64,000 nt of DNA, taken from NCBI GenBank assembly GCA_902775565.1, contig CACYMP010000005.1, forward strand, positions 17,911 through 81,910, in the 5' to 3' direction. A program made the position numbers and the translations under genes. The notes below the pieces were generated by a model that did no database searches, was not told the DNA's origin, and worked only from the letters and a program-made list of their open reading frames with translations. The stretch is from Oscillospiraceae bacterium. Lineage in GTDB: Bacteria; Bacillota; Clostridia; Saccharofermentanales; Saccharofermentanaceae. Of this stretch, positions 25,686-56,361 are shown one piece after another. Position 1 is the stretch's first letter, and each line of letters begins with the position of its first letter.

Positions 25686-25753
25686 AGTCCACCTCTAAAA
25701 GTATCTGACGGATATAGATTAACTAATTTTCGCTGTCGCCGCAACTAAAAATA

Positions 25754-25762
25754 TGCTAGAAT
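25754..25762 (+). promoter_or_regulatory. Candidate extended -10 element for eda-kdgK
   Basis: TGCTAGAAT (TGn + TAGAAT) about 29 nt upstream of the eda ATG. Confidence 0.4.
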
Positions 25763-25790
25763 ACAAGTTAACAAATTCGAGGTGTTTCAC

Positions 25791-37202: not shown

Positions 37203-37217
37203 GGGGAGGAGTTACAA

Positions 37218-38939: not shown

Positions 38940-39013
38940 GAAATCTATGGATGGGGGCTGCTTTTTTGGAGCAGCCCTTTTCTTTTGCTATAATGAAACC
39001 ATTGAGGTGGATC

Positions 39014-39670: not shown

Positions 39671-39722
39671 CTGTTTTTGAAAGATGCCATGGTATATCCT
39701 CTAGCTATGGAGGTGGAAAACC

Positions 39723-40589: not shown

Positions 40590-40590
40590 T

Positions 40591-41712: not shown

Positions 41713-41723
41713 GAGGTGTTACC

Positions 41724-42809: not shown

Positions 42810-42816
42810 TCTTTGC

Positions 42817-43719
42817 ATGTTGCCTTTTATACTGATCTGTATCTGTATCGCTTTAGCGGTAACCGTAACAGCCCTTATCTTTAAGGTGCTTCTGCTCAAG
42901 CGCGCATTCGGCGAGATTGACGATCAGGTTAAGGATCACTTGGATGGCACGAATTCTTCTGTATTTCAGCTTTCGACCTCTGATAAGAATGCCCGTAAGC
43001 TCGCAAACGATCTGAACGGAGCACTCCAAGAGCTCCATGAGGAACGCGTATTCCTCAAAGACGGCGACAAGCGCATGAAGGAAAATGTTACCGCGATCTC
43101 ACACGACCTGAGGACACCGCTTACCGCCATCAATTCGTATGTCGATCTGCTCGAAAGCGAGAACGATGAGGCGAAGAGAAAAGAATACTTAGAACGTATC
43201 AAGGAAAGGACTTCTGAGCTTAAGGATCTGACCGGAGAGCTCTTCAAGTATTCCGTTTCTTCAGATGTGCAGTACGATTCCCAGCTGTCGACCGAGGAGC
43301 TTGATCTTCAGAGCATAATCGAGAACAGCCTTATCTCTTTTTATAAAGAATTCACATCGAAAGGTATCGTTCCTCAAACTGATTTTCCGTCTGAAAAGGT
43401 TACGGTCAACAGCAACCGTAAGACGCTGATGCGCATATTTGATAATGTGTTCAGCAATGCCACGAAATATGCCTCGTCGTTGTCTGTTAAGCTTACTTCT
43501 GATGGTGTTGTGACTGTTACTAACGATGCGCCCGGACTTACAGCGGTTCAGGTCTCCAAACTGTTCGATAAGTATTACACCGTTAATGACGGCAGCGATT
43601 CTACTGGTCTGGGGCTTTCGATAGCAAAAGAGTTAACCGGTAAGATGGGCGGCAGCATTTCGGCCACTCTAAATGACGGAATGCTCACGATAACGATCGA
43701 ATTTAAGAAGGTCTTATGA
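42817..43719 (+). CDS. Intramembrane-sensing-type histidine kinase (short N-terminus)
   Basis: Single N-terminal hydrophobic segment. H-box AISHDLRTPLTAI, N-box NVFSNATKY, G-box STGLGLSIAKE. Confidence 0.85.
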   Translation: MLPFILICICIALAVTVTALIFKVLLLKRAFGEIDDQVKDHLDGTNSSVFQLSTSDKNARKLANDLNGALQELHEERVFLKDGDKRMKENVTAISHDLRTPLTAINSYVDLLESENDEAKRKEYLERIKERTSELKDLTGELFKYSVSSDVQYDSQLSTEELDLQSIIENSLISFYKEFTSKGIVPQTDFPSEKVTVNSNRKTLMRIFDNVFSNATKYASSLSVKLTSDGVVTVTNDAPGLTAVQVSKLFDKYYTVNDGSDSTGLGLSIAKELTGKMGGSISATLNDGMLTITIEFKKVL

Positions 43720-44209: not shown

Positions 44210-45268
44210 ATGGATAATGAGTTTAAGAACATCGTAGATTCACTTAAGGCAACTAAGAGCATCACACGCGATCAGTTTGCATACCTTTTGGAAAAAGACG
44301 GCGAAGACAACAGGGAATACCTCTTTGAAGCGGCAAGAGAAGTCGCCGAGCAGGTATTCCACAAGGAAGTATATCTTCGCGGTCTGATAGAATTCACCAA
44401 CTACTGCAGGAATAACTGCTACTACTGCGGCATCCGCTGCGGCAATGCAAATGCCGACAGATACAGGCTTACTGAAGTAGAGATACTCTCATGCTGCGAC
44501 AGAGGCGAGAAGCTGGGTTTTAAGACATTCGTTTTGCAGGGCGGTGAAGACCCGTTCTATACGGATGAGAAGATCTGCAGCCTTGTAAGAAAGATCAAGG
44601 CAGCCCATCCTTCGTGCGCAGTCACGCTCTCGATCGGCGAGAAGTCTTATGACAGCTACAGGAAGTATTTCGAAGCAGGCGCCGACAGATATCTTCTGCG
44701 TCACGAGACTGCTAATGAAGAGCACTATTCAAAGCTTCATCCTGAATCGATGTCGGGAGCTTTACGCAAGCAGTGCTTGAGAAATCTCAAAGAGATTGGC
44801 TTCCAGGTTGGTTGCGGCATAATGGTGGGAACGCCTTTCCAGACGACTGACAACATCTACGAGGATATCCTCTTCATGCAGGAACTTCAGCCTCACATGA
44901 TCGGCATAGGCCCGTTCATTCCGCATAAGGACACACCGTTCAGGGACGAGCCTGAGGGAAGTGTTGAAATTACGCTCAGATTGCTTTCTATCCTCAGGTT
45001 ACTGTTCCCCAAGGTTCTTTTGCCTGCCACGACCGCTCTCGGCACTGCAGACGCTATAGGAAGGGAAAAAGGTATACTTGCGGGCGCCAATGTCATGATG
45101 CCCAATCTGTCACCGGTAAAGGTGCGCGATAAGTATCTGCTTTACGACGGCAAGATATGCACCGGCGAAGAAGCCGCGGAATGCAATCAGTGCATGAGAA
45201 GAAGAGTCGAGCATATAGGTTTCCACGTAGCTGATACGAGGGGCGACCACCCGGATTTCGTTAACTGA
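44210..45268 (+). CDS. hydE: [FeFe]-hydrogenase H-cluster radical-SAM maturase HydE
   Basis: CRNNCYYCGIR radical-SAM triad, RYRLTEVEIL, VLQGGEDP. ~350 aa with a BioB-like fold pattern typical of HydE. Confidence 0.8.
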   Translation: MDNEFKNIVDSLKATKSITRDQFAYLLEKDGEDNREYLFEAAREVAEQVFHKEVYLRGLIEFTNYCRNNCYYCGIRCGNANADRYRLTEVEILSCCDRGEKLGFKTFVLQGGEDPFYTDEKICSLVRKIKAAHPSCAVTLSIGEKSYDSYRKYFEAGADRYLLRHETANEEHYSKLHPESMSGALRKQCLRNLKEIGFQVGCGIMVGTPFQTTDNIYEDILFMQELQPHMIGIGPFIPHKDTPFRDEPEGSVEITLRLLSILRLLFPKVLLPATTALGTADAIGREKGILAGANVMMPNLSPVKVRDKYLLYDGKICTGEEAAECNQCMRRRVEHIGFHVADTRGDHPDFVN

Positions 45269-45286: not shown

Positions 45287-48034
45287 TTACCATTCACCCT
45301 GGTATTTCCAGTTTGAAGGATCATGCGGATTGCCTTCCATAACGAACCAGGCACCGGGCATGAACTTGTTGCCGTTGTTTACTTCAACGTCGATTATCCT
45401 TGAATAGAAAACAGTCTGCGGACCTTGCTTCTCATGTGAATCTATCGCATGTCCCGTAAAAGGATTTACCGGGTTTTTGATAAGGCCCGAAGTAGCCAGG
45501 GTCGGTGTGTCGCCGTTAGTCATGAAATCCTCGTTGACGGTAAAGCCCTTTGCACCGAAATCCTTAACCATCAGCAGCGGCATGAAGCTTTCGAGGTCAG
45601 TGTTGTTGCAGTATTTCCCGAACTGCTCAAGGTCATTGCCGTGGTCAGATACGAGTATGATCCTTGTGTTGTCGTAAACGCCGTTTGCACGCAGATAATC
45701 GAACCATTCGCCAAGCCTCATGTAAGCCGCGACATTGACGTGATAGTGAGCTACCTGGTGGTCGTTGGTCATCTTCATCGTTACGCCGTTTAATGTATAA
45801 CGTGAGACCATATCCTTGTCGTATTCCGTGTTGTCGACATGAAGAGCCGGAGTATAACCGGGTTCCTGCAAGAGACATGGTGAATGCGTAGTCTCGTTGG
45901 CCATCATGAGGAATGTGTTTTCGTTACTGTCTGTGATCTGTGTGATCTTGGGGAGCTTTGTAAGAACAGTGTAGGACTCGAGGAAGACTTTGTCATAGCC
46001 TGTTCCTAACGATATACCATCCTTTTTCTGAACGATCGACGAAACATACAGACTGCCTTTATTGCTTGTTGCCTCATTATAGAGACCGCCGTTGTAGATA
46101 GTCTCCTGCAGCATGACGGGGGAGATCTTCATAAGCGAGAACATGAAGAAATTGCGGTTTCTGAGTTCGTTTACGCGGTTTGACATCTCGATCGAGCTGC
46201 TGCCCTCATCTTCAAAATAATTGAATCTGGCGTTGGTTATGTAGCATTTGAATTCCGGATGATCATTGAAAATGGAAAGGTCGGGGATCCATTTGTATCC
46301 TGCGTAGGAAGGATCGCAGATGGTTACTTTGTAGCCTTCATTCCCGAAAAGAACCGGCATGACTTTCAGTGCTTCATTATGCTTGCTTTCAAGGCTTTCA
46401 TTTTCTCTTGCGTTCATCCTTTCGGGAGTGTAATCGTAACCGCCGTAAAGGGCAGGCGCTCCGAAATTGGTCTGCGGACCGTAAGAGATTGTGTTCGGAT
46501 AGTATGTGAAACCGTCGAACTTTTCTTTTAGTTCGGGCTTCTCGTTAAAGATATACGGGACCTGCGTTCCTACTGCGCGGTCGAGCATGAGAACGATCAC
46601 GTTTTTGCCTGTTCTGCTTAAGGGGATCGAAGGCATCTCGGCAGACGGCCTGCTCAGATTCTCATACCAGGAATATGTTCCGAATATACCGAGAACAGGA
46701 AGCAGACCGGTTACAAAGATCGCGACCGCGCCTATGATCAGCGTCGGTTTTACTATCTTTGTAAACTTCGAATAGATGAGCAGGAAGATTACGGCAACGG
46801 CGATTATTACCGCCGCATTGATCAGATGATCAGATAACTTGAATGACGGCGTCAGATTGTACTGCAAGGTCGAGGACATGATCCCGAGCTTCTTTGCGAA
46901 AAAAGAATAATCGATCAGTGAGATACCGCATATGACCCAAATGGCTTTGCTGAATAGAACCTTGAACTTGTCGCTCATAAAGAAATAGAAAACGCCGCCC
47001 CACAATACCCAGCTGCCAAATGCGAGAAGAATGGAGTTAATGACATAGAATACCGGATTGGAAGGGTTAATGACATCAATGAATTCCTGCGCAGAAGAAT
47101 CAATAACGGTAGCCGGAATGAAAAGACCGGTAAACAATGCCATCAGGACAGTGCCTGCAATGAAAGCGGGGGTGTTTACGGTAACCGTTCCGGATCTGTT
47201 TTCGCGTCTGATCAAGCCCGTTACGAGAGGGAATATCAGTAATATCCCGCCCAGTACCAGAAGCACTTTCTGTCTTGCATCAAGAGCAGTGCTTATCAAA
47301 GCAGATACAATAACTGCGGCACCGGAGGCTGCAAGAACGATGTTAAGAGCTTTCTTCGGATCTTTAAGCTTATAGAAAATGTTCTTTACGAAAGCGAAAA
47401 CGTTGTTTAAGAGCCAGTAGAATACGAGTCCTGAAGGCGAACGGTAGAGCAGCACGAGGAATGCTGCCGCAAGACCGTACACCTGTATCTTGGACTTCAG
47501 AGGATGTCCTTTTGTGTAGATGATGCCCGTTATTACATTGATCAAGGTCATGAGTATGGGAAGAATGTTCACGGGGAAAGAGCCGAGCATGAAAGTTGCA
47601 TCTTCTTTTCCAAGATCAGAAATAAAACCGAACGGCGTGCCCTGAAGACTCTGCATACCGGAAAGGAGCCTGTATGCCGCAATGAAGAACGGGATCTGCA
47701 GCAGCAGTGAAGCGGAACTCTTTAACGCATATACAGGTTTGTAGCTGTTGACACGGTAATATGCCTGAAGCATGAAGAAACGTTCATCACCGGTAAATTC
47801 CTTTTTGATATGCTTGACGGTAGGAGCCATCTTAGCCTGGATATCATTCTCCTCTGCCTGAAGTTCATCTGCTCTCTTGTAGAGCGGAAGAACAAGGAAA
47901 TTGACCGCGATGCTTAAGAATACGATCGCGAGCCCGCTGTTGCCTATCAGCCTGTCAGCAACCGAAAAGATAACTTCAAAAAGAAGCTCTAAAGGTGAGA
48001 TTATCAATGTGTAAAGTGCTGACAGGAATGACAT
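45287..48034 (-). CDS. Fusion protein: YidC/Oxa1-like insertase domain + polytopic region + LtaS/sulfatase-fold phosphotransferase domain (copy 2)
   Basis: The N-terminal ~230 aa show the YidC core pattern (LPLYKRADELQAEENDIQAKMAP...LQIPFFIAAY...PILMTLINV...GLVFYWLLNNVF). More TM helices follow. The C-terminal alkaline-phosphatase-superfamily motifs are VLMLDRA, ETTHSPC and ILVSDHG. Confidence 0.8.
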   Translation of the reverse strand: MSFLSALYTLIISPLELLFEVIFSVADRLIGNSGLAIVFLSIAVNFLVLPLYKRADELQAEENDIQAKMAPTVKHIKKEFTGDERFFMLQAYYRVNSYKPVYALKSSASLLLQIPFFIAAYRLLSGMQSLQGTPFGFISDLGKEDATFMLGSFPVNILPILMTLINVITGIIYTKGHPLKSKIQVYGLAAAFLVLLYRSPSGLVFYWLLNNVFAFVKNIFYKLKDPKKALNIVLAASGAAVIVSALISTALDARQKVLLVLGGILLIFPLVTGLIRRENRSGTVTVNTPAFIAGTVLMALFTGLFIPATVIDSSAQEFIDVINPSNPVFYVINSILLAFGSWVLWGGVFYFFMSDKFKVLFSKAIWVICGISLIDYSFFAKKLGIMSSTLQYNLTPSFKLSDHLINAAVIIAVAVIFLLIYSKFTKIVKPTLIIGAVAIFVTGLLPVLGIFGTYSWYENLSRPSAEMPSIPLSRTGKNVIVLMLDRAVGTQVPYIFNEKPELKEKFDGFTYYPNTISYGPQTNFGAPALYGGYDYTPERMNARENESLESKHNEALKVMPVLFGNEGYKVTICDPSYAGYKWIPDLSIFNDHPEFKCYITNARFNYFEDEGSSSIEMSNRVNELRNRNFFMFSLMKISPVMLQETIYNGGLYNEATSNKGSLYVSSIVQKKDGISLGTGYDKVFLESYTVLTKLPKITQITDSNENTFLMMANETTHSPCLLQEPGYTPALHVDNTEYDKDMVSRYTLNGVTMKMTNDHQVAHYHVNVAAYMRLGEWFDYLRANGVYDNTRIILVSDHGNDLEQFGKYCNNTDLESFMPLLMVKDFGAKGFTVNEDFMTNGDTPTLATSGLIKNPVNPFTGHAIDSHEKQGPQTVFYSRIIDVEVNNGNKFMPGAWFVMEGNPHDPSNWKYQGEW

Positions 48035-48040
48035 AACGTT

Positions 48041-50809
48041 TTACCACTCTCCGAGATACTTCCATGCATTGGCATCGAACGGCATCTTGCCGTTGAAAGT
48101 GTAATGAGGTCCCGGCGGGAATTTATAGATATACTTATCGCTGGGATTCCACTCTTCGGTATACAAAACAGTCTGAGACCCTTTCTTTGCGTCGGATGTC
48201 AAAGGATTACCCGTAAAAGGATTTACGGGGTTGCTGATAAGTCCGGCGGTTGCAAGGACCGGTGTATCGCCGTTGGTCATGAAATCTTCTTTTACGTTGA
48301 AACCTTTTGCATTAAAGTCTTTTACCATCAGGAGCGGCATGAAGGATTCTAGATTCTGACCGTTGCAATTGATGCCGAACTGGTTAAGGTCCTTTCCGTG
48401 GTCAGATACAAGGATTATCCTGGTATTGTCATATACTCCGTTTGCACGCATATAGTCAAACCATTCTCCCAATTGAATGTAGGATGCGATATTGACATGG
48501 TAATGAGTGATCTGATCTACAGTGTTCATGCCCATCGTTTTGCCGTTTATCGTATAACGTGAATCGTTATTTGCGTTAAAAGCAGTGTTATCGACATTGG
48601 GTGAAGGAACATAGTCCGGAGTCTGAAGCAGGCAGGGAGAATGAGTGGAATCGAAGGCTATCATCGAGAACGTATTCTGATCGTTGTCATTAAGGACGGA
48701 AAGATTCCCGAGATTCTTCAGGACAGCATAATCATTCAGGAAGAAGATGCTGTATCCGGTACTCTTTGAAGTCGTTACATTTGACTGTATGATCGAAAAC
48801 CCTGAAGATTCTCCCGATGAAGAGACTGACTCATTGTATGCGCCGCCATTATAAACGGTTTCCTGAAGTACGAGAGGTGAAGTCTTCATTATAGCCAGCA
48901 TGAAGAAGTTGCGGTTGCGCAATTCTTTGATGCGCTCTAAAGGATTAACCGAAGTGCTGCTGTCGTTATCCCAATCGAGATAGTTTAAGGCGCCGACAGT
49001 AGTGTAGCAGGAGATATCCGGATAATCAGAGTAAATGGTGGTGTCAGGAAAAGACTTATAACCTGCATAAGGAGGATCGCAGACGGTAACTTTGTAACCT
49101 GCGTTTCTGAAAAGGACAGGCATGACCTTCAATGCTTCGTCATGTTTGTGTGCCATTGTTTCAGAGCTTCGTTCAGCCATCTTCTCCGGAGTGTATTCAT
49201 AACCGCCGTAAAGTGCCGGAGCGCCGACTATCGTACATGGTCCGTAAGACATCGTGTTCGGATAATATGTAAACCCATCGAACTTATCTTTGAGTTCCGG
49301 TTTCTCGCTGAATATATAAGGAACCTGTGTTCCCAAAGCACGGTCGAGCATAAGCACGAGAACGTTTTTGCCGTTCTTGCTGAGAGGGATAGAAGGCATT
49401 TCCACTGCAGGTTTGGAGTTGCTCCAGAAATCCCAGTAACCTGAATATGTTCCCATGATCCCCAAAGAGTTGATGAGACCTACGCCCAGAACCGTCATTA
49501 TACCTACAGCCGTGATCATGTTTGTTATCTTTACGTTCTTGGAATATATAAACCAAAGCACTCCGCCGGCTGCGGCTACAGCCAGGAGATTTATCAATTG
49601 TTCCGTAAAGCTGAATGAAGGTGCGGTGTCATATTGAAGGGTTGAAGACATAGTACCCAGCTTTGTGCCGAAAAACATATAGTCAACAACCGATATTCCG
49701 CAGATGATCCATATGGCCTTACTGAATAATCTCTTGATCTTGCCGCTCATGAAAAAGTAAAAAACACCGCCCCACAATACCCAGCTGCCAAAAGATAAAA
49801 GCATTGAGTTGACCACATAGAGTATCGGATTAGAGATCTGGACGCTGTCAACAAATTCGAGTGTGGAAGCGCTGATGACAGATGAAGGAATGAGAAGACC
49901 TGTAATGAGTGCCATCAGTACGGTGCCTGAGAAAAAGGCGATGTTATCGGCTTTGACTGCAGGCTTGTTATTCTCTTTTTTCTTGGAAAAACTAAGCACA
50001 AGGGGAAGTGCGAGCGAGATCCCGCCTGTTACCAGCAGGACTTTCTGTCTTGCATCAAGATCTGATCTGATGACAGAAGAAACGATAACGGCAGCACCTG
50101 CAACGGCAAGAACGATGCTGAGGGCTTTTTTCGGATCTTTGAGCTTGTAGAAGATGTTCTTAACAAGTGAGAATACGTTGTTTAAAAGCCAGTAGAATAC
50201 GAGTCCCGAAGGTGAGCGGTAGAGAAGGACAAGGAAGACTGCGGCGAGACCGTAGACCTGCACCTTCTCCTTTACCGGATGACCTTTGGTATAGATCATT
50301 CCCGAAATGACATTGATGAGTGTCATGAGTATCGGAAGGACATTTACAGGAAAGCTCCCTATCATGAACATTGCGTCTTCTTTTCCGAGATCGGATATGA
50401 ATCCGAATCTCATTCCCTGAAGACTCTGCATTCCCGATAAGAGGTTATATGCGGCAATGAAGAACGGGATCTGCAGCATTACCGATATCGAGCTCTTAAG
50501 AGCATACACAGGCTTATAGTGATTGATGCGGTAATATTCCTGGAGCATGAAGAAACGTTCGTCACCGGTAAACGTCTTTTTGATCTTCTTGATCCACGGA
50601 GCCATCTTGACCTGGATATCACGTTCCTCGGCCTGAAGTTCATCAGCTCTTTTATAAAGAGGCAATACCAGGAAATTAACGGCAAGACTCAGAAAAATAA
50701 TAGACAGTCCCTCATTGCCGATTATCCTGTCGGCAATGGTGAATATGACTTCAAACAGAAGTTCCAAAGGCGTTATTATCAATGTGTAAAGGATTGAAAG
50801 AATGGTCAT
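48041..50809 (-). CDS. Fusion protein: YidC/Oxa1-like insertase domain + polytopic region + LtaS/sulfatase-fold phosphotransferase domain (copy 1)
   Basis: Full-length collinear paralogue of 45287-48034 (same N-terminus M.ILS.LYTLII.PLELLFEVIF; VLMLDRA, DSTHSPC, ILVSDHG). Only 6 nt separate the two genes. Confidence 0.8.
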   Translation of the reverse strand: MTILSILYTLIITPLELLFEVIFTIADRIIGNEGLSIIFLSLAVNFLVLPLYKRADELQAEERDIQVKMAPWIKKIKKTFTGDERFFMLQEYYRINHYKPVYALKSSISVMLQIPFFIAAYNLLSGMQSLQGMRFGFISDLGKEDAMFMIGSFPVNVLPILMTLINVISGMIYTKGHPVKEKVQVYGLAAVFLVLLYRSPSGLVFYWLLNNVFSLVKNIFYKLKDPKKALSIVLAVAGAAVIVSSVIRSDLDARQKVLLVTGGISLALPLVLSFSKKKENNKPAVKADNIAFFSGTVLMALITGLLIPSSVISASTLEFVDSVQISNPILYVVNSMLLSFGSWVLWGGVFYFFMSGKIKRLFSKAIWIICGISVVDYMFFGTKLGTMSSTLQYDTAPSFSFTEQLINLLAVAAAGGVLWFIYSKNVKITNMITAVGIMTVLGVGLINSLGIMGTYSGYWDFWSNSKPAVEMPSIPLSKNGKNVLVLMLDRALGTQVPYIFSEKPELKDKFDGFTYYPNTMSYGPCTIVGAPALYGGYEYTPEKMAERSSETMAHKHDEALKVMPVLFRNAGYKVTVCDPPYAGYKSFPDTTIYSDYPDISCYTTVGALNYLDWDNDSSTSVNPLERIKELRNRNFFMLAIMKTSPLVLQETVYNGGAYNESVSSSGESSGFSIIQSNVTTSKSTGYSIFFLNDYAVLKNLGNLSVLNDNDQNTFSMIAFDSTHSPCLLQTPDYVPSPNVDNTAFNANNDSRYTINGKTMGMNTVDQITHYHVNIASYIQLGEWFDYMRANGVYDNTRIILVSDHGKDLNQFGINCNGQNLESFMPLLMVKDFNAKGFNVKEDFMTNGDTPVLATAGLISNPVNPFTGNPLTSDAKKGSQTVLYTEEWNPSDKYIYKFPPGPHYTFNGKMPFDANAWKYLGEW

Positions 50810-50813: not shown

Positions 50814-52286
50814 TTATGCTTTTGGACCCGGCAAAGCTAACTTCTTTTTTGACGGCTTCGCTTCTTTGTTTTTTGCAGCGGCTTCTTCAGACTTCTTTTT
50901 CGTGACCTCATTATATTTTTGCATTATAAAGTCAACGGTCAGAACGGCTCCGTTGCCCATGGGTACCCATGTCTCCGAACGTGCCTTGTCACGGCCTTTG
51001 CCAAATGACGGATCTTCAATGCACTTATCGATAAGTTCTTTTATGTTGCCGACATTTTCCTCGTTAAGTTCAAGTCCTAGTTCGGGAAGGGTCTTAAATG
51101 TCCATGGCGTCTCTTCGATCCACGAAGCATCGTAAGGTGAAATGTCATACTTTGTATCCGTATAGATAAGCGGTTTGTCGAATACCAATGTGAAATCGAA
51201 TATGATTCCCGAGAAATCTGAGATCAGGATATCAGCCTGCCTTAAGACTTCGAAGTTGTCGTTATCTCTGTTCCAGATGACTTTCGGATTGCCGTTGTAT
51301 TTAGACATGAGATTATCGAGCATTTCCTTCTCTGAGGAATAAGACTGCGGGTGCGGTCTTACAATAATCCTGTATCCCGTGTCGATAAGCGCATCTATCA
51401 GCTTCTCGCCGAATCTTGAAAGTATTCCGCTCTTGCCCCACGAAGGTGCCATAAGGACCGTTTTGTCATGTTCGGGAACAGGACCGGCTTCTTCGAGTCG
51501 TTTCTTCATGGCATCCATGTAGGGAATGCCGCATAAAGGAGCTTCACGCTCGGGAATCCCGCGCATTTTCTCTAGTTTCCTTATCTCTTCGACCTGATAT
51601 TCACCAGAGAGCGGAAGGGCGTCAAAATGGTCGGTGCCAAACATACGGTACATGCTGATGTCATTTGCGCCGTGCTGAACATGAATATAGAAATCAACAT
51701 TCTTGGAACGCTTCCACTGGAAAACGTCGAGGCTCGGTGTTGAGGATACAACGACTGATGCGTTCAGCAGATTCAATTTTGAGAAAGCTTTGTTGCCTTC
51801 ACCGATGAATTCACCGGTGATGTATTCGTATTTTTTGTCGAAAAAAGGATCATCTTTGGAACACGTAAGATACGTGACCTTCTGTTTTCTCTTCTCAAAC
51901 TCGTCGAGGAGCGGTTCAAAGACATTCCAGTATCTCTTGTGGTCGGTGAATATCGCGATCGGGATCTTCTGGTCGTTGAGCTTGGCACTCTTTCCGCCGC
52001 TTACGCGGTATTTGAGCTTCAGCATAAGTGCGCGTATGGAGAATACAGCCACACCAAAGATGCCGAAAAGAATTGTAAAGAGCATGCCGCCCGTGCCGGG
52101 GTCGATATAGAGAACCATTAAATAATCCATAAAAAACTTCTTTCCAAACAGATATGCGGGTAAAGGGCGAACGTAAGGCCCAACTATTATTTTATTACTT
52201 TTATTATTTTGCTTCAACTTAACCATTTCTCTCTGTTCAAACGATTTGCAAAACGGGTTGAGAAATTGTATTTTATATGTGTTCAC
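50814..52286 (-). CDS. CDP-glycerol glycerophosphotransferase family (TagB/TagF-like) protein with an N-terminal TM helix
   Basis: C-terminal TagF-type motifs (APSWGKSG, RPHP, LISDFSGIIFDF...PLIY). The true start is probably internal, e.g. MDYLMVLYIDPGTGGMLF near 52130. The stop lies 4 nt upstream of the next gene. Confidence 0.75.
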   Translation of the reverse strand: MNTYKIQFLNPFCKSFEQREMVKLKQNNKSNKIIVGPYVRPLPAYLFGKKFFMDYLMVLYIDPGTGGMLFTILFGIFGVAVFSIRALMLKLKYRVSGGKSAKLNDQKIPIAIFTDHKRYWNVFEPLLDEFEKRKQKVTYLTCSKDDPFFDKKYEYITGEFIGEGNKAFSKLNLLNASVVVSSTPSLDVFQWKRSKNVDFYIHVQHGANDISMYRMFGTDHFDALPLSGEYQVEEIRKLEKMRGIPEREAPLCGIPYMDAMKKRLEEAGPVPEHDKTVLMAPSWGKSGILSRFGEKLIDALIDTGYRIIVRPHPQSYSSEKEMLDNLMSKYNGNPKVIWNRDNDNFEVLRQADILISDFSGIIFDFTLVFDKPLIYTDTKYDISPYDASWIEETPWTFKTLPELGLELNEENVGNIKELIDKCIEDPSFGKGRDKARSETWVPMGNGAVLTVDFIMQKYNEVTKKKSEEAAAKNKEAKPSKKKLALPGPKA

Positions 52287-52309
52287 AAAAATACAAAACG
52301 AGAGTGTTC

Positions 52310-54094
52310 ATGAACAAGAGCAATCATCAAGACAGTGAAATTTCGAAACAGGCTTTGGATATCTTATTGAGCCTTAATCGTGAGAGATATACCAACCAGC
52401 GTGAGCTGGCCGAGAAAAGCGGCCTTTCGCTGGGCTTTGTCAATAAATCACTTAAGCTTCTTGAAGAAAAAGGGCTGATTGGCAAGACATGCGTTCCGAC
52501 TGCCAAAGCTAAGTCTCTGATCAGAAAATGCAGTCCTCAAAGGGCAGTTATCCTCGCGGCAGGTATCGGAATGCGTATGGTTCCGATCAACACGATAACC
52601 CCGAAGGCACTCCTTGATGTAAAAGGCGAAGTTCTGATCGAACGCCAGATAAGGCAGCTGCATGAGGCAGGTATTACCGATATTTCGGTTGTTGCAGGAT
52701 TCATGAAAGAAGCCTTTGAGTATCTTGTTGACAAGTTCAATATCAATCTGATCTCAAATGAGTATTATGCATCCAGGAACAATATCTATTCTGTCAGCAT
52801 TGCTTCTGACAGGCTTTCTAATTGCTATATAGTTCCATGCGACATATGGAGCAGGAACAATCCGTTCAGCAGGGATGAACTGTACAGCTGGTATATGGTA
52901 TCAGACTGTCAGGATAAGAAGTCTTCCGTCAGGATCAACAGAAAGAATGAACTTGTAAGGATCCCGGCGGATGATCCCGGCAACCGGATGATAGGCATCT
53001 CATATCTTCTGAAAGAAGATGCGGAAACAGTATCTTCGAATATCAGAAAGCTCCTTTCTGACGGACGTCATGAGGAGTCCTTCTGGGAAGAGGCTTTGTT
53101 CGATGATGACCGTATGTTCATCAACGCACGCCTGGTCTCTGATGATGATGTAAGAGAGATCAATACTTACGAGCAGCTTCGTGAGATAGATTCGGGATCT
53201 GATCATCTGAAAAATGATGCGATCAAGACCATTTCCAAGGTCTTCGGCTGTGAAGAAAGAGATATAAAAGACATATCTGTTCTCAAAAAAGGAATGACAA
53301 ACAGATCATTCCTGTTCTCGCTGGGCGGGTCAAAATACATCATGAGAATACCCGGAGAGGGCACGGATCTCCTGATCAACAGAAAGCAGGAAAAAGAAGT
53401 CTATGAGACCATCAGCGGTCTGGGCTTATGCGATGATCCCATATATATCAATCCGGATAACGGCTATAAGATCACCAAATATCTTGAAGGTGTAAGAGTC
53501 TGCGACTGCAATGATGAGCTGGATCTTACCAGATGCATGAAAAAGCTTAGAGAATTCCATGAGATGGAATTGAAGGTCGATCATGAGTTTGATATCTTCG
53601 CTCAAATTGAATTCTATGAATCCCTGTGGAACGGAATGCCCTCCGTATTCCGCGATTATGCAGATACAAAGTCAAAAGTTATGTCGCTTCAAGGCGTGAT
53701 AGCAAATATCAGTAAGAAATGCTGCTTAACACATATCGATGCAGTACCTGATAATTTTCTTTTCTATATGCCTGCAGGATCAAAGAAATATCTTTTGCAG
53801 CTTACTGACTGGGAATATTCAGGAATGCAGGATCCGCATGTGGATATAGCTATGTTCTGTATATACAGCCTGTTTGATAAGAACGGATGTGACCATCTTA
53901 TCGATATCTATTTCGACGGCAAATGCGATACGAAGACCAGGGGGAAGATCTATTGTTATATAGCTTCCTGCGGCCTTTTGTGGTCTAACTGGTGCGAATA
54001 CAAAAGAAGTCTCGGAGTCGAGTTTGGCGATTACAACATTCGTCAGTACCGTTACGCGAAAGAGTTCTACAGATACGCAATGGAGTTGTTATGA
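52310..54094 (+). CDS. Tripartite fusion: wHTH + LicC-like nucleotidyltransferase + LicA-like choline/aminoalcohol kinase
   Basis: wHTH (TNQRELAEKSGLSLGFVNKSLKLLEEKGLI). NTP-transferase loop ILAAGIGMRMVP...PKALL. Kinase Brenner motif LTHIDAVPDNFLF and DWEYSGMQDPHVDIA. Confidence 0.8.
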   Translation: MNKSNHQDSEISKQALDILLSLNRERYTNQRELAEKSGLSLGFVNKSLKLLEEKGLIGKTCVPTAKAKSLIRKCSPQRAVILAAGIGMRMVPINTITPKALLDVKGEVLIERQIRQLHEAGITDISVVAGFMKEAFEYLVDKFNINLISNEYYASRNNIYSVSIASDRLSNCYIVPCDIWSRNNPFSRDELYSWYMVSDCQDKKSSVRINRKNELVRIPADDPGNRMIGISYLLKEDAETVSSNIRKLLSDGRHEESFWEEALFDDDRMFINARLVSDDDVREINTYEQLREIDSGSDHLKNDAIKTISKVFGCEERDIKDISVLKKGMTNRSFLFSLGGSKYIMRIPGEGTDLLINRKQEKEVYETISGLGLCDDPIYINPDNGYKITKYLEGVRVCDCNDELDLTRCMKKLREFHEMELKVDHEFDIFAQIEFYESLWNGMPSVFRDYADTKSKVMSLQGVIANISKKCCLTHIDAVPDNFLFYMPAGSKKYLLQLTDWEYSGMQDPHVDIAMFCIYSLFDKNGCDHLIDIYFDGKCDTKTRGKIYCYIASCGLLWSNWCEYKRSLGVEFGDYNIRQYRYAKEFYRYAMELL

Positions 54095-54807
54095 GCGGAT
54101 ATAAGGTCAAACGTGCGATCATAATGGCTGCAGGCATAGGCAAAAGGATGCAGCCCCTTACATTCCAGACTCCCAAGCCGCTTATCGAAGTCAACGGCAA
54201 ACGGATGATAGACACCATTATAGATGCGCTTCTTGAGAACGGTATTGAAGACATCAATATCGTGACCGGTTATCTTGCTGACAGCTTTAAAGCTTTGATC
54301 TCAAAATATCCGACAGTCAGGTTCATCAACAATCCCGATTACGATAAGTACAATAATATTTCTTCGCTTTACTACGCGAGACATCTTCTTGATACTGATG
54401 TGATCATTACCGATGCGGATCAGATCGTACGCAACAAAGATATATTATCTCCTTCGTTTGAGATATCCGGATATAACGCCACGGAAGTTACGTCATATAC
54501 GGACGAATGGGTAATGAGTGTTGAAAACGGCGTTGTTACTTCATGTTCAAGAAACGGCGGTGACAGAGGATGGCAGCTGTACAGCATTTCCAGATGGTGC
54601 CGTGAAGATGCGATAAAGCTCAAAAAATACATTGAACTTGAATTTGAGAAAAATGAAAGAAGGGATATCTATTGGGACGATATTCCGATGTTCATCCATT
54701 TCAACGATTTCAAACTCGGGATCAGGGTTATGCAAAGCGGAGATATGGTTGAGATAGACAGCCTTGAAGAATTGAAAATTATAGATCCAAAGTATTTGAA
54801 TATGTGA
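54091..54807 (+). CDS. Second LicC-like nucleotidyl (cytidylyl) transferase
   Basis: AIIMAAGIGKRMQPLTFQTPKPLIEV. ATGA overlap with the previous gene. Confidence 0.8.
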   Translation: MSGYKVKRAIIMAAGIGKRMQPLTFQTPKPLIEVNGKRMIDTIIDALLENGIEDINIVTGYLADSFKALISKYPTVRFINNPDYDKYNNISSLYYARHLLDTDVIITDADQIVRNKDILSPSFEISGYNATEVTSYTDEWVMSVENGVVTSCSRNGGDRGWQLYSISRWCREDAIKLKKYIELEFEKNERRDIYWDDIPMFIHFNDFKLGIRVMQSGDMVEIDSLEELKIIDPKYLNM

Positions 54808-54816: not shown

Positions 54817-56361
54817 ATGGCAAGTGAATTGACCAAGGAAGTAAGTAAGAGAAAGATCGATCCGTTTACAACGTTTGTTCCGTTCGGATGTGTTCTTGCT
54901 TTGTGCGCATATTTTGTACTTGCGCCGGAGAATTCAACCAATGCTCTTGAAGTCATCAGGAGTTTTCTCGGTGATAAGTGCGGCGTTTACTATCTCGTGA
55001 TCGGATTGGGTTTCTTCCTCGTATCACTCTGGCTTTCGTATTCCAAGATCGGCAAGCTCACGATTGGCAAGAAGGGCGAAAAGCCGAAATACGGTTTCTT
55101 TGCATGGGGAGCAATGGTCTTCACATGCGGACTGGCATCGGACATCCTGTTCTATTCTTTCTGTGAATGGATCTACTACTATGAAGATCCTCATGTAATG
55201 GGATTCGGGAATATCAACGAATGGGCAGCGACTTTCCCTTTATATCATTGGAGTCTGATTCCTTGGAGCTTTTATGCCGTTCTTGCGGCCGCATTCGGCT
55301 TCATGCTGCACGTCAGAGGCTGTCACAAACAGAAGTACTCCGAAGCCTGCAGGCCTCTGCTCGGCAAGCATACCGACGGAGTTGCAGGTAAGGTTATCGA
55401 TATCCTTGCCGTAATAGCGCTTATAGCGGGAACTGCAACAACATTCTCCATTGCTACTCCGCTCTTGTCGATGGTCCTTACGGATCTGTTCGGTATAGCA
55501 GGATCCAAGTATGTTTCTATCTGCATCCTGCTTATTGTCTGCGGCATCTACACATGCTCCGTCATGAACGGCCTTAAGGGCGTCAACATGCTTTCTAAGA
55601 TATGCATGATCCTTTTCGGAATAATCCTTGCATATGTGTTCTTCTTCGGAGGAGAAGCAAGATTCTCAATTGAGACAGGTGTAACTTCAATCGGAAATAT
55701 GGTCCAGAATTTTATCGGATTATCCACATGGACTGATGCAACGAGAACGGAAGCGGGCTTTGCGCAGAACTGGACGATCTTCTACTGGGCTTATTGGATG
55801 GTCTGGTGTGTCGCTGCTCCTTTCTTCATGGGAATGATAAGCCGCGGAAGAACGATCAAGCAGGTAATAATGGGATCTTACGTCTTTGGTACTGCGAGCA
55901 CGCTTATCTCATTTATCGTTCTCGGAAATTTCGGCCTCGGTATGAAAGTTCACGGGAGATTTGATGCTGTTGCACAGTATCATGCCAACGGAGACGATCT
56001 CTATCAGACGATCATCGACATAATCCACGAGCTTCCTTTCCCGGCGATCTTCCTGGTAGTCCTTGCTCTTGCTATGTTTGCGTTCTATGCAACATCGTTT
56101 GACAGCATCACAATGGTTGCATCCAATTACAGCTATAAGAACATTGATAACGATGAGAGCGCAAGCAAGAAGATGAAGCTGTTCTGGGCAGTCCTGCTCA
56201 TCATGCTGCCTATCGCACTTATCTTCTCGGAAGGTACGATGGCTAATCTTCAGACCGTATCGATCATTGCCGCATTCCCAATCGGAATCGTCATGATCCT
56301 CATTATTGCAAGCTTTATCAAAGATGCAAAAAGCCATCTTGAGGAAGATAAAGCGGGATAA
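54817..56361 (+). CDS. BCCT-family (betaine/carnitine/choline) transporter
   Basis: 12-TM protein with the BCCT signature WTIFYWAYWMVWCVAAPFFMGMISRGRTIKQ. Confidence 0.85.
   Translation: MASELTKEVSKRKIDPFTTFVPFGCVLALCAYFVLAPENSTNALEVIRSFLGDKCGVYYLVIGLGFFLVSLWLSYSKIGKLTIGKKGEKPKYGFFAWGAMVFTCGLASDILFYSFCEWIYYYEDPHVMGFGNINEWAATFPLYHWSLIPWSFYAVLAAAFGFMLHVRGCHKQKYSEACRPLLGKHTDGVAGKVIDILAVIALIAGTATTFSIATPLLSMVLTDLFGIAGSKYVSICILLIVCGIYTCSVMNGLKGVNMLSKICMILFGIILAYVFFFGGEARFSIETGVTSIGNMVQNFIGLSTWTDATRTEAGFAQNWTIFYWAYWMVWCVAAPFFMGMISRGRTIKQVIMGSYVFGTASTLISFIVLGNFGLGMKVHGRFDAVAQYHANGDDLYQTIIDIIHELPFPAIFLVVLALAMFAFYATSFDSITMVASNYSYKNIDNDESASKKMKLFWAVLLIMLPIALIFSEGTMANLQTVSIIAAFPIGIVMILIIASFIKDAKSHLEEDKAG

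What the first reader, a model, noticed from the sequence alone, without database searches (positions are those of the whole stretch)
45287..50809. Tandem paralogous ~920-aa proteins that fuse a YidC/Oxa1 insertase core to an LtaS-like polytopic sulfatase-fold transferase
SEEN: two same-strand genes lie 6 nt apart and are collinear over their full length. Their nucleotide sequences have clearly diverged, so this is not an assembly duplicate. Each protein starts directly with a YidC core: ...LPLYKRADELQAEE.DIQ.KMAP..K.IKK.FTGDERFFMLQ.YYR.N.YKPVYALKSS...LQIPFFIAAY...SDLGKEDA...PILMTLINV...SPSGLVFYWLLNNVF. Additional TM helices follow. The C-terminal alkaline-phosphatase-superfamily domain carries the expected metal and nucleophile motifs (VLMLDRA; [TS]THSPC; ILVSDHG). 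ESTABLISHED: YidC/Oxa1 proteins are stand-alone membrane insertases. LtaS/EptA/MdoB-type enzymes combine N-terminal TM helices with an extracytoplasmic sulfatase-fold domain that transfers phospho-alcohol groups from lipid donors. INFERENCE: the covalent coupling of an insertase-like module to an envelope phosphotransferase is unusual, as is its duplication. The genes are co-transcribed with a TagF-like enzyme and face choline-activation genes. The YidC-like part may have been re-purposed, for example as a lipid or polymer groove or scramblase-like module, rather than acting as a general insertase. I know of no characterised example.
Basis: partly seen in the sequence, partly recalled or inferred. 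Interest (0 to 1): 0.66.

Follow-up and report, generated by a model that had tools for sequence, protein, structure and literature searches.

The report
YidC-fused envelope phosphotransferases with TagF-like partner
Two neighbouring genes encode real, widespread but unstudied 12-helix membrane enzymes that join an altered YidC insertase-like module to an LtaS/EptA-type outward-facing phosphotransferase, always paired with a TagF-like enzyme, and probably form a new route for decorating the cell wall (here apparently with phosphocholine).

Summary
Genes A (45287-48034, -) and B (48041-50809, -) are intact and 6 nt apart. They are 65% identical in protein, with 45% third-codon identity. Each scores above Pfam thresholds for 60KD_IMP (YidC) and Sulfatase.

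The fusion is not an artefact. The part without YidC finds 879 clusters (50% identity, E<=1e-30), and 127 of the best 150 carry the YidC module.

Each protein has a 5-TM YidC module, 2 linker TMs, and an EptA/MCR-1/LtaS-like 5-TM bundle with an external catalytic domain. D489, T526, H723, D803 and H804 are essentially invariant. There is no sulfatase CxPxR motif.

The YidC groove arginine is replaced by Asn and is never Arg or Lys. This module is more conserved (81%) than the catalytic domain (56%).

The conserved partner is a membrane-anchored TagF-like enzyme. It directly precedes 60 of 101 fusion genes, with gaps of -10 to +11 nt. Choline-activation genes adjoin the pair in 5 of 46 genomes. 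In one genome licC-licA-licB-T-F stands where LicD would be.

Best model, inferred not shown: T makes a lipid-linked phospho-alcohol inside, the YidC-like module moves it across, and the outer domain transfers it to wall polymers. I found no paper on this.

The parts
48041..50809 (-). Gene B: 922-aa YidC-module + polytopic alkaline-phosphatase-superfamily transferase ('F' family)
   Evidence: ORF. Pfam 60KD_IMP 75.6 bits and Sulfatase 38.3 bits. AF2 model with mean pLDDT 78, 12 TM helices plus a globular domain.
45287..48034 (-). Gene A: 915-aa paralogue of B (65% aa identity), with its own orthologues in other genomes
   Evidence: Equivalent key residues in A: N45 (47900-47902), D485, T522, H717, D797/H798.
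50135..50809 (-). B residues 1-225: YidC/Oxa1-fold module (N-terminal amphipathic helix, TM1, cytoplasmic C1 hairpin, TM2-TM5). The groove Arg is replaced by N45 (codon 50675-50677).
   Evidence: Pfam and NCBIfam. PDB profile alignments place Ec R366 and Bh R72 opposite N45. Position 45 is N 104, S 8, A 3 and never R/K among divergent representatives. Mean column identity across paralogues is 81%.
49946..50134 (-). B residues 226-288: two linker TM helices (TM6, TM7) ending in a basic cytoplasmic loop (SKKKENNKPAVKAD)
   Evidence: AF2 helices 226-247 and 253-273. Positive-inside tally. Short forms of the family begin after this segment.
49400..49945 (-). B residues 289-470: five TM helices (TM8-12), N-in/C-out, equivalent to the EptA/MCR-1/PbgA membrane domain
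   Evidence: AF2 helices. Foldseek alignments of 647-720 columns to full-length MCR-1 9nww, EptA 5fgn and PbgA 6xlp.
48044..49399 (-). B residues 471-922: extracytoplasmic alkaline-phosphatase-superfamily catalytic domain. D489 (49343-49345), T526 (49232-49234), H723 (48641-48643), D803-H804 (48398-48403).
   Evidence: pLDDT above 90. Pfam Sulfatase. D489 and D803/H804 align to the metal ligands of phosphonate monoester hydrolase and sulfatases. Residues are invariant in 148-150 of 150 divergent representatives.
50814..52130 (-). Gene T: membrane-anchored TagF-like CDP-alcohol phosphotransferase, about 438 aa. The mechanical ORF runs to 52286, but the family alignment puts the start at M53 (nt 52130). 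The stop lies 4 nt before the start of B.
   Evidence: Pfam Glyphos_transf 57 bits against a gathering score of 22.1. Invariant N-terminal LYIDPGTGgMLF anchor in 59 homologues. Directly precedes 60 of 101 F genes. Start position.
52131..52309 (.). Divergent intergenic region between T and the choline-activation genes (presumed promoters)
   Evidence: Gene starts inferred. The promoter scan is not above the shuffled expectation, so this is positional inference only.
52310..54094 (+). HTH (MarR-like) + nucleotidyltransferase + choline/ethanolamine kinase fusion (LicC/LicA-like)
   Evidence: Pfam HTH_24, NTP_transf_3 and Choline_kinase. Probable start at M12.
54091..54807 (+). Second LicC-like nucleotidyltransferase; its start overlaps the upstream stop (ATGA)
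   Evidence: Pfam NTP_transferase 48 bits. Start position.
54817..56361 (+). BCCT-family (betaine/carnitine/choline) transporter
   Evidence: Pfam BCCT 419 bits; NCBIfam TIGR00842.

Best explanation
A and B are two old paralogues of a large, uncharacterised family (called 'F' here) of roughly 920-aa, 12-TM envelope enzymes of rumen and gut Clostridia.

Shown:
- Each F protein is a covalent fusion of three parts. The first is a YidC/Oxa1-fold 5-TM module whose canonical groove arginine has been replaced by Asn across the whole family. The second is two linker TM helices. The third is an EptA/MCR-1/LtaS-type unit: 5 TM helices plus an extracytoplasmic alkaline-phosphatase-superfamily domain with invariant metal ligands and a Thr at the nucleophile position. 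That pattern points to a phospho-alcohol transferase and not to a sulfatase.
- F genes are translationally coupled to a membrane-anchored, cytoplasm-facing TagF-like CDP-alcohol phosphotransferase (T). They occur as arrays T-F(n), with n = 1 to 5.

Inferred:
- T and F form a relay across the membrane. T uses a CDP-activated alcohol to build a lipid-linked phospho-alcohol on the inner leaflet. In this locus the alcohol is most likely choline, activated to CDP-choline by the adjacent LicA/LicC-like genes and imported by the BCCT transporter.
- The YidC-like module, with an uncharged or acidic polar groove, moves that head group to the outer leaflet by a scramblase-like action. It may also dock T.
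- The outer catalytic domain takes the phospho-alcohol on T526 and passes it to a wall or membrane glycopolymer.
- The conserved YidC module handles the common donor, and the diverged outer domains of the paralogues serve different acceptors.

The logic resembles the three-component GtrB/GtrA/GtrC glycosylation systems, and PptA/EptA using a lipid donor, but for a CDP-derived phospho-alcohol and without LicD.
For: Architecture.

Not an artefact, and abundant: 4222 hits, with the best 120 all about 920 aa and carrying PF02096 (81 also PF00884). The part without YidC finds 879 clusters at E<=1e-30, and 127 of the best 150 carry the YidC module. Independent gene calls in isolate genome GCA_000702965.1 show PF04464-F-PF04464-F-F-F.

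Catalytic residues: D489 149/150, T526 148/150, H723, D803 and H804 150/150.

Topology: the positive-inside tally puts the catalytic domain outside. T has an N-terminal TM helix followed by basic residues, so its catalytic domain is inside.

T-F coupling: T is present in 56 of 70 loci and directly upstream of 60 of 101 full-length F genes, with gaps of -10 to +11 nt. No Wzx or TagGH-type exporter and no LicD is found in the window, so whatever T makes needs another route across the membrane.

The YidC module is altered and under strong constraint. Ec R366 / Bh R72 align to N45. That position is never R/K in about 119 divergent members, and position 113 is Q (65) or E (53). Column identity is 81% against 56% for the catalytic domain. 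Between A and B it is 84% against 56-62%.

Precedent: purified E. coli YidC, Oxa1 and Get1 scramble glycerophospholipids (PMC11047089).

Choline link: choline genes adjoin T-F in 5 of 46 genomes, in three different arrangements and with two unrelated transporter families. This includes the co-directional licC-licA-EamA(LicB-type)-T-F in L059.

Precedent for an EptA-type phosphocholine transferase thought to use a lipid donor: PptA (PMC10434233).

Wall-polymer context: an LCP ligase gene lies two genes downstream in 9 loci and in L070.
Against: - No biochemical data exist for any member.
- The product of T, the lipid carrier, the donor of F and the acceptor are all unknown.
- TagF-family enzymes are known for CDP-glycerol and CDP-ribitol. 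Use of CDP-choline is not documented (one search found nothing).
- Choline genes adjoin only a minority of T-F modules, so the alcohol may be glycerol or something else in most cases.
- LtaS, EptA and GacH work without a dedicated flippase because their donors are bulk phospholipids.
- The AF2 model of the YidC part is only moderately confident (pLDDT 45-75). Coordinates could not be inspected, so it is not known whether the groove faces the transferase bundle.
- E. coli YidC tolerates loss of R366 (my own knowledge, not checked here), so loss of Arg does not prove loss of insertase activity.
Confidence: 0.4

Rival explanations
1. Built-in biogenesis helper. The YidC module is a working insertase or chaperone that acts in cis to insert and fold the seven following TM helices, or more generally serves as an extra membrane insertase. 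It has no role in the chemistry. The transferase uses an ordinary bulk phospholipid (PG, PE or PC) as LtaS and EptA do. T only works on the same polymer from the inside.
For: The module keeps the complete YidC core above Pfam's threshold, including the C1 hairpin. Polytopic enzymes of this class are likely YidC/Sec clients; YidC was among 54 co-IP partners of over-expressed MCR-1 (PMC7868338), which is weak evidence.
Against: The thousands of LtaS/EptA/GacH-type enzymes need no fused insertase. A helper for self-insertion would not be expected to be the most conserved part of the protein (81% against 56%). The groove Arg, essential in B. subtilis SpoIIIJ (my own knowledge of Kumazaki et al. 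2014, cited as ref. 56 in PMC11047089), is absent in every member. There are up to 7 copies per genome, and none lies in an rnpA-yidC-jag context.
Confidence: 0.2
2. Docking platform. The YidC module does not move anything. Its groove and its highly conserved cytoplasmic C1 hairpin hold the TM anchor and the catalytic domain of T. This builds a stable T-F complex in which the 5-TM bundle, or an unidentified factor, provides the transmembrane path.
For: T's N-terminal anchor (LYIDPGTGgMLF) is invariant in 59 homologues, more than a passive anchor needs. The C1 hairpin (LPLYKRADELQAEE...) is invariant across paralogues. One T serves arrays of several F genes whose YidC modules are nearly identical. 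YidC grooves naturally bind single TM segments (established knowledge of the family).
Against: No T-F fusion protein ('Rosetta stone') appears among the best 120 T hits or among the best 150 and 120 F hits. 15 of 101 F genes have no adjacent T. No complex model could be built or inspected with the tools available.
Confidence: 0.2
3. LtaS-like polymerase. F proteins are lipoteichoic-acid-type synthases that polymerise glycerol phosphate from phosphatidylglycerol on the outer face. T is a separate wall-teichoic-acid enzyme. The YidC part is a largely vestigial inherited fusion.
For: The LtaS and LtaP ectodomains are among the best fold matches. Sources name T 'CDP-glycerol glycerophosphotransferase family protein'.
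Against: A vestigial module would decay, but here it is the best conserved region. Multiple diverged paralogues per genome fit decoration enzymes better than one polymerase. The translational coupling to T and the lic-type operon in L059 are left unexplained.
Confidence: 0.1
4. Artefact: a frameshift or mis-assembly joined a yidC gene to a sulfatase-family gene.
For: None found.
Against: There are two intact copies in the window. Hundreds of independent full-length homologues of the same length come from isolates and MAGs.
Confidence: 0.005

Closest known systems
EptA / MCR-1 / PptA (polytopic phosphoethanolamine or phosphocholine transferases, alkaline phosphatase superfamily)
   Same: Five TM helices (N-in) followed by an extracytoplasmic catalytic domain. 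Asp/Glu, Thr and Asp-His active-site set. Full-length MCR-1 (9nww) and EptA (5fgn) are the top Foldseek matches over about 650 columns. PptA transfers phosphocholine or phosphoethanolamine outside the cytoplasm, probably from a lipid donor (PMC10434233).
   Different: Sequence similarity is marginal (Pfam Sulfatase 27-38 bits; no EptA_B_N hit). F carries seven extra N-terminal TM helices, including a YidC module. F is coupled to a TagF-like enzyme and, in some genomes, to Lic-type CDP-choline genes. [quoted passage not shown]
LtaS / LtaP / GacH (glycerol-phosphate transferases of Gram-positive envelopes)
   Same: Same fold and general architecture. Gram-positive wall-polymer context. The LtaS and LtaP ectodomains are strong fold matches. 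GacH decorates a wall polysaccharide with glycerol phosphate (bioRxiv 10.1101/337519).
   Different: Those enzymes use bulk phosphatidylglycerol and have no YidC module and no obligatory TagF-like partner. The first metal ligand here is Asp, as in sulfatases and phosphonate monoester hydrolase, whereas LtaS and EptA have Glu (my own knowledge, not checked here).
YidC / SpoIIIJ / Oxa1 membrane insertases
   Same: The 5-TM core with cytoplasmic hairpin is recognised by Pfam 60KD_IMP, TIGR03592 and PDB profiles. YidC itself scrambles lipids in vitro (PMC11047089).
   Different: The groove Arg is replaced by Asn in the whole family, and Q/E sits at position 113. There is no free C-terminal tail because the module is fused. 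There are 1-7 copies per genome in wall-polymer contexts. No rnpA/jag neighbourhood is seen.
Lic-1 phosphorylcholine pathway (LicA, LicB, LicC, LicD)
   Same: A choline transporter, a choline kinase and a cytidylyltransferase lie next to the module. L059 has licC-licA-EamA(LicB-type) directly upstream of T-F.
   Different: There is no LicD. T-F occupies its place. The transporter in the window is BCCT rather than LicB-type. Most T-F modules have no adjacent lic genes.
Three-component extracytoplasmic glycosylation (GtrB/CsbB + GtrA/GtcA flippase + GtrC/YfhO GT-C)
   Same: Same proposed logic: a cytoplasmic transferase loads a lipid carrier, a small membrane module flips it, and an outward-facing polytopic enzyme decorates a surface polymer. 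Paralogous outer enzymes provide specificity.
   Different: There is no homology to any component. Here a phospho-alcohol would be moved rather than a sugar, and flippase and outer transferase are fused. This is an analogy only.

Membership tests
YidC/Oxa1 insertase family | Five-TM core matching Pfam PF02096 above the gathering score | tested here: met
   75.3 bits (A) and 75.6 bits (B) against 35. PDB profile: E. coli YidC 3e-14, B. halodurans YidC2 1e-10.
YidC/Oxa1 insertase family | NCBIfam TIGR03592 (yidC_oxa1_cterm) at or above its cut-off of 84.3 | tested here: inconclusive
   A scores 84.3, exactly at the cut-off. B scores 81.8, below it.
YidC/Oxa1 insertase family | Conserved arginine in the hydrophilic groove (Ec R366, Bh R72, Bs SpoIIIJ R73) | tested here: not met
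   It aligns to N45 in both PDB alignments. Across divergent members the position is N 104, S 8, A 3, L 1, D 1, and never R/K.
YidC/Oxa1 insertase family | Cytoplasmic coiled-coil hairpin (C1) between TM1 and TM2 | tested here: met
   AF2 helices 33-79 and 85-95. The loop holds 10 K/R.
YidC/Oxa1 insertase family | Housekeeping genomic context (rnpA-yidC-jag) and essential single or dual copy | tested here: not met
   There are 1-7 copies per genome. The neighbours are the TagF-like gene, LCP and unrelated genes, and no such context is seen in 70 loci. Whether a separate housekeeping yidC exists in these genomes could not be tested, because only flanks of 10 kb or less were available.
YidC/Oxa1 insertase family | Membrane-protein insertase activity | not testable with these tools
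   Needs complementation or reconstitution.
LtaS/EptA-type polytopic alkaline-phosphatase-superfamily transferases | Catalytic domain matching PF00884 above the gathering score | tested here: met
   26.7 (A) and 38.3 (B) against 25. This is weak, and many homologues fall below the score.
LtaS/EptA-type polytopic alkaline-phosphatase-superfamily transferases | Five TM helices, N-in, directly preceding an extracytoplasmic catalytic domain | tested here: met
   AF2 helices 289-463. Positive-inside tally. Foldseek alignments of 647-720 columns to full-length MCR-1, EptA and PbgA.
LtaS/EptA-type polytopic alkaline-phosphatase-superfamily transferases | Metal-binding acidic residue after beta-1, Thr nucleophile at a helix N-terminus, Asp-His pair | tested here: met
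   D489 and D803/H804 align to the metal ligands of 2w8s. T526 lies at the start of helix 526-535. All are invariant in 148-150 of 150. The assignment of T526 as nucleophile rests on position and invariance, not on a residue-level structural superposition.
LtaS/EptA-type polytopic alkaline-phosphatase-superfamily transferases | Uses a membrane lipid head group as donor | not testable with these tools
   Biochemistry is required.
Formylglycine-dependent sulfatases | C/S-x-P-x-R motif providing the formylglycine nucleophile about 40 residues after the first metal ligand | tested here: not met
   The consensus at that position is SYGxxTxxGxPALYGG, with invariant Thr and no CxPxR.
TagF-like CDP-alcohol phosphotransferases (neighbour T) | Match to PF04464 above the gathering score | tested here: met
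   57 bits against 22.1. There is a weak local match to the TagF-like polymerase Cps3D and to TarL in the PDB. The equivalog models TarF and TarL score far below their cut-offs, so the substrate is undefined.
Lic-1 phosphorylcholine pathway | LicA kinase + LicC cytidylyltransferase + choline transporter + LicD transferase | tested here: not met
   Kinase, nucleotidyltransferases and a BCCT transporter are present. No LicD (PF04991) was found among the 54 window ORFs scanned.

The most novel reading that the evidence does not exclude
The YidC/Oxa1 fold has been recruited as a dedicated, substrate-specific lipid head-group translocator. Its groove has changed from basic (Arg) to neutral or acidic (Asn45, Gln/Glu113). 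It is fused to the enzyme that consumes its cargo. Together with a TagF-like enzyme it forms a LicD-independent pathway: CDP-choline (or another CDP-alcohol) to a lipid-linked phospho-alcohol, then flipping, then extracytoplasmic transfer onto wall polymers. This pathway is expanded into paralogue arrays that diversify the surface of rumen Clostridia.
Probability: 0.3. Interest if true: 0.8.

Novelty: new variant of a known kind. Interest (0 to 1): 0.62.

Why it matters
1. Thousands of database entries are named simply 'membrane protein insertase YidC', although two-thirds of each protein is an outward-facing phosphotransferase. That annotation is misleading.

2. A natural, strongly conserved fusion of a YidC fold that lacks its signature arginine to a lipid-dependent transferase would be physiological evidence that the recently reported scramblase activity of Oxa1-family proteins is used by cells for small-molecule or lipid transport. 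It would also provide a tractable system in which to study that activity.

3. The T-F module, and the lic-type operon with T-F in place of LicD, suggest an undescribed route for phosphocholine (or other phospho-alcohol) decoration of Gram-positive walls. Such a route would bridge the two pathways that are currently regarded as separate, Lic-1 and PptA.

4. Arrays of up to five diverged paralogues in abundant rumen fibre-degrading Clostridia point to extensive surface variation. This is relevant to phage and host interactions in the rumen.

Tried and rejected
- Artefact or frameshift: rejected.
- True sulfatase: rejected. There is no CxPxR motif and the Thr is invariant.
- Known anti-phage defence component: no PADLOC hit for A, B or T.
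- Stand-alone ancestors: most short hits are fragments or truncated gene calls. For example, P0269 shares a 90% cluster with an 863-aa member named YidC. A few may be genuine: P0252 (647 aa), and the 730-aa Olsenella profusa protein with no Pfam YidC hit.
- T-F 'Rosetta stone' fusion proteins: none among the best hits.
- Choline-binding repeat proteins as a sign of phosphocholine walls: a simple regular-expression scan found none in the window or the 69 loci. The sampled sequence is too small for this to be informative.
- Promoter and terminator scan: not above the shuffled expectation, so uninformative.
- Residue-level mapping of the nucleophile by PDB profile search: HMMER aligned only the first strand and the C-terminal metal site.
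- A T+F complex model was considered and dropped. The structure tool takes single chains and returns neither coordinates nor PAE.
- Ten literature searches found no description of the fusion or of a TagF-like CDP-choline enzyme.

Full report
**1. Observation**

A is 45287..48034 (-) and encodes 915 aa. B is 48041..50809 (-) and encodes 922 aa. The spacer is 6 nt, AACGTT.

BLASTP gives 65% identity over the full length with only 7 gap positions. In aligned codons the DNA is 67% identical, and only 45% at third positions. The duplication is therefore old and not an assembly duplicate. Each copy has its own orthologues in other assemblies: A-type P0039 at 99%, P0023 at 96% and P0041 at 83%; B-type P0001 at 97% and P0002 at 87%.

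Pfam places 60KD_IMP at residues 34-221 of both proteins (75 bits; gathering score 35). It places Sulfatase at about 480-810 (26.7 and 38.3 bits; gathering score 25). NCBIfam's TIGR03592 YidC core scores 84.3 and 81.8 against a cut-off of 84.3.

**2. Not an artefact, and not rare**

A search with B returned 4222 proteins at E<=1e-5. The best 120 are all about 920 aa apart from one 692-aa fragment, and all carry PF02096; 81 of them also carry PF00884. The only names given are 'membrane protein insertase YidC' or 'YidC/Oxa1 family membrane protein insertase'.

A full HMMER scan with residues 226-922 only, without the YidC part, found 2369 cluster representatives at 50% identity. Of these, 879 have E<=1e-30. 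Of the best 150, 127 match an HMM of the YidC module. Most of the rest are fragments or truncated gene calls. For example, P0269 shares a 90% cluster with an 863-aa member named YidC/Oxa1.

A few forms lack a recognisable YidC part. These include P0252 (647 aa), the 730-aa 'arylsulfatase domain protein' of Olsenella profusa, and P0150 (919 aa, with no Pfam YidC hit).

In reference genomes the family sits in rumen and gut Clostridia: Saccharofermentans MAGs, 'Ruminococcaceae bacterium' AB4001, YRB3002 and YAD3003, Mageeibacillus MAGs, and one Lachnospiraceae MAG. NCBI places Saccharofermentans in Oscillospiraceae. At least 1 to 7 copies were seen per genome.

**3. Anatomy**

The AlphaFold2 model of B was built from a 65-sequence alignment and has mean pLDDT 78 and pTM 0.65. 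The catalytic domain is above 90, the middle helices are about 80-90, and the YidC part is 45-75. It shows twelve TM helices and a globular C-terminal domain.

Counting K+R in the loops gives a consistent positive-inside topology:
- N-terminus outside;
- C1 hairpin (10 K/R) inside;
- loop 274-288 (5 K/R) inside;
- C-terminal domain outside.

Short members of the family begin at helix 289-314. The protein therefore reads as YidC (5 TM) + 2 linker TM + [5 TM + catalytic domain].

Foldseek against the PDB agrees. The best matches are full-length MCR-1 (9nww, 647 columns), EptA (5fgn, 663 columns) and PbgA (6xlp, 717 columns). The LtaP and LtaS ectodomains and many sulfatases also match.

A profile of the catalytic domain aligns D489 with the first metal-binding Asp, and D803-H804 with the 'SDHG' metal ligands, of phosphonate monoester hydrolase and sulfatases. 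In 150 representatives down to about 36% identity, the counts are: D489 149/150, T526 148/150, H723 150/150, D803 150/150, H804 150/150 and K830 150/150.

T526 sits at the N-terminus of helix 526-535, after the second strand. In this superfamily that is the canonical nucleophile position (established knowledge of alkaline phosphatase, LtaS and EptA). No C/S-x-P-x-R motif is present. I conclude that the domain is a Thr-type phospho-alcohol transferase or phosphodiesterase and not a sulfatase. The assignment of T526 is an inference from position and invariance.

**4. The YidC module is real but altered**

Profile searches hit E. coli YidC at 3e-14 and B. halodurans YidC2 at 1e-10 over the whole module. 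In both alignments the signature groove arginine (Ec R366, Bh R72) falls on N45. Across divergent representatives this position is Asn 104, Ser 8, Ala 3, Leu 1 and Asp 1. It is never Arg or Lys.

The TM2 position 113, in the 'LLQIP' motif, is Gln in 65 representatives and Glu in 53. The groove has therefore gone from basic to neutral or acidic.

The module is also the best conserved part of the protein. Mean column identity is 81%, against 56% for the catalytic domain in the same 45 proteins. Between A and B it is 84%, against 56-62% for the other regions. That pattern argues against a vestigial domain. It argues for a function shared by all paralogues, while the outer domains diversify.

**5. 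The conserved partner is the TagF-like gene, not the choline genes**

I called ORFs in the 69 loci and the window and clustered them. The TagF-like protein (T, about 438 aa) occurs in 56 of 70 loci.

The gene immediately upstream of each of the 101 full-length F genes is:

| Upstream neighbour | F genes | Gap |
|---|---|---|
| T, same strand | 60 | -10 to +11 nt (often the 4-nt ATGA-type overlap) |
| Another F | 21 | mostly -4 nt |
| Another gene | 15 | |
| Contig edge | 5 | |

Arrays range from T-F to T-F-F-F-F-F (L065). Independent gene calls and Pfam hits in isolate genome GCA_000702965.1 give PF04464-F-PF04464-F-F-F, then an unknown membrane protein, then LytR_cpsA_psr.

T is itself highly conserved. 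It has an invariant N-terminal 'LYIDPGTGgMLF' membrane anchor followed by basic residues, so its catalytic domain faces the cytoplasm. In the window its true start is probably M53, at nt 52130. T has more than 6000 relatives, and the best 120 are all single-domain PF04464 proteins of 400-470 aa.

Choline genes (a LicA/LicC-like pair and a transporter) adjoin T-F in 5 of 46 genomes, in three arrangements. The most telling is L059: NTP_transferase - Choline_kinase - EamA (LicB-type permease) - T - F, all co-directional. That is a lic1-like operon with T-F where licD would be.

The window has the divergent version, with a BCCT transporter. No LicD, Wzx or TagGH was found in any of the 54 window ORFs scanned.

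**6. Mechanism**

What is shown:
- T acts on a CDP-activated alcohol at the cytoplasmic face. This follows from family membership and topology.
- F's catalytic domain is outside.
- The two genes are translationally coupled.
- No conventional exporter is part of the module.

What is inferred: the product of T has to cross the membrane to reach F, and the only conserved candidate for that step is F's own membrane part. Its most conserved element is a YidC fold with a re-charged hydrophilic groove. Purified E. coli YidC, Oxa1 and Get1 scramble glycerophospholipids in vitro, and other family members do so in simulations (PMC11047089).

I therefore favour a relay:
1. T loads a phospho-alcohol from CDP-X onto a membrane lipid. 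In this locus X is probably choline.
2. The YidC-like module equilibrates that lipid across the bilayer. It could also return the de-headed lipid and help to hold T.
3. T526 of the outer domain takes the phospho-alcohol and passes it to a wall or membrane glycopolymer.

LCP ligase genes nearby point to wall polymers. One T feeding several F paralogues with nearly identical YidC modules but diverged outer domains fits 'one donor, several acceptors'.

Precedents for the last step are EptA and MCR-1 (phosphoethanolamine from PE), LtaS and GacH (glycerol phosphate from PG; bioRxiv 10.1101/337519), and PptA. PptA is an EptA-type enzyme that puts phosphocholine on pilin, with a lipid suspected as donor (PMC10434233). 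[quoted passage not shown] The loci described here would be such a case.

I put about 0.4 on this relay as a whole. The architecture, the family and the T-F coupling are near-certain. The lipid intermediate, the translocating role of the YidC module and the identity of the alcohol are inferences.

**7. Rivals**

(a) The YidC module is a cis-acting insertase or chaperone for its own seven helices (0.2). It keeps the full core, and polytopic enzymes of this kind are plausible YidC clients; YidC was one of 54 co-IP partners of over-expressed MCR-1 (PMC7868338), which is weak evidence. Against this, other members of the LtaS/EptA class need no fusion, the module is more conserved than the enzyme, and the Arg is gone.

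(b) The module is a docking platform for T's invariant anchor (0.2). This is compatible with, and may be combined with, the main model.

(c) F is an LtaS-like polymerase using PG, and the YidC part is vestigial (0.1). The conservation pattern contradicts this.

(d) Artefact (below 0.01).

**8. Limits**

- I could not inspect model coordinates or PAE, so whether the groove faces the transferase bundle is unknown.
- I could not access whole genomes, so the presence of a separate housekeeping yidC is untested. None occurs in the window or in about 1.2 Mb of loci.
- The promoter and terminator scan was uninformative.
- Ten literature searches found no paper on this architecture. The library lacks most subscription journals.

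**9. Verdict**

This is a genuine, abundant and mis-annotated family. It is a new variant built from known parts: a YidC fold, an EptA/LtaS-type transferase and a TagF-like partner. It comes with a specific and testable hypothesis for a new use of the YidC fold and for a LicD-independent phosphocholine or phospho-alcohol decoration pathway. Interest is 0.62.

Noticed in passing
B residue 113 (window 50471-50473) and the family alignment: The TM2 groove position in the 'LLQIP' motif is dimorphic across the family: Gln in 65 and Glu in 53 of 150 divergent representatives. Together with Asn at the former Arg position, this makes the groove neutral or acidic. It may track the charge of the cargo head group.
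   Followed up: partly
window 50814-52286 (-), N-terminus of T: The mechanical ORF overlaps the divergent gene by 10 nt. The family alignment puts the real start at M53 (nt 52130). The N-terminal anchor motif LYIDPGTGgMLF is invariant in 59 homologues, far more conserved than a passive TM anchor needs to be.
   Followed up: partly
window 52277-54094 (+) and 54091-54807 (+): The choline-activation gene is a three-part fusion: a MarR-type HTH, a nucleotidyltransferase and a choline kinase. A second stand-alone LicC-like nucleotidyltransferase follows, overlapping the stop (ATGA). Why there are two nucleotidyltransferases, and why there is a DNA-binding domain on an enzyme, is unexplained.
   Followed up: no
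L059:335-7315: A faecal Eubacteriales MAG has licC-like, licA and an EamA (LicB-type) permease, then T and F, all co-directional. This is a lic1-like operon with T-F in place of licD.
   Followed up: yes
L070 (GCA_000702965.1, 'Butyrivibrio sp. AE2032') and L004, L005, L007, L013, L018, L025, L041: Downstream of the F arrays there is a recurrent trio: an unknown 455-480-aa membrane protein (cluster c4), an LCP (LytR_cpsA_psr) ligase, and a convergent CBS-domain protein plus SASA-family esterase. The synteny of L070 matches the Saccharofermentans-type loci, so the 'Butyrivibrio' label of this isolate may be a misclassification.
   Followed up: partly
P0230 (Olsenella profusa F0195, 730 aa): An actinobacterial (Coriobacteriia) member of the C-terminal family keeps an N-terminal helix resembling the first helix of the YidC module (MSLLDVSFAIIVEPLRMAF...) but has no Pfam YidC hit. 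It may be a decayed or partial fusion.
   Followed up: no
window 6853-10979: A WYL-domain regulator (-) lies divergent from a DUF2828/DUF7788 protein and RtcB RNA ligase. This looks like an RNA-repair operon.
   Followed up: no
window 15437-27451: Hexuronate utilisation cluster: a GntR/FCD regulator, a mannitol-dehydrogenase-family enzyme (UxuB-like), UxuA, an ABC sugar-uptake system (two permeases plus a 579-aa binding protein), UxaC, KDPG aldolase and a PfkB kinase.
   Followed up: no
window 36534-43719: Two response-regulator and histidine-kinase pairs flank an ABC ATPase and two paralogous 366-405-aa membrane proteins without Pfam hits. This looks like a Bce-like peptide-sensing and detoxification module. 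The same clusters (c9, c12, c24, c8) recur next to T-F in several other loci (L011, L013, L018, L045).
   Followed up: no
window 44210-45268 (+): The [FeFe]-hydrogenase maturase HydE (TIGR03956, 569 bits) stands alone, convergent with gene A. Only 18 nt separate the two stop codons and no terminator-like hairpin was detected.
   Followed up: no
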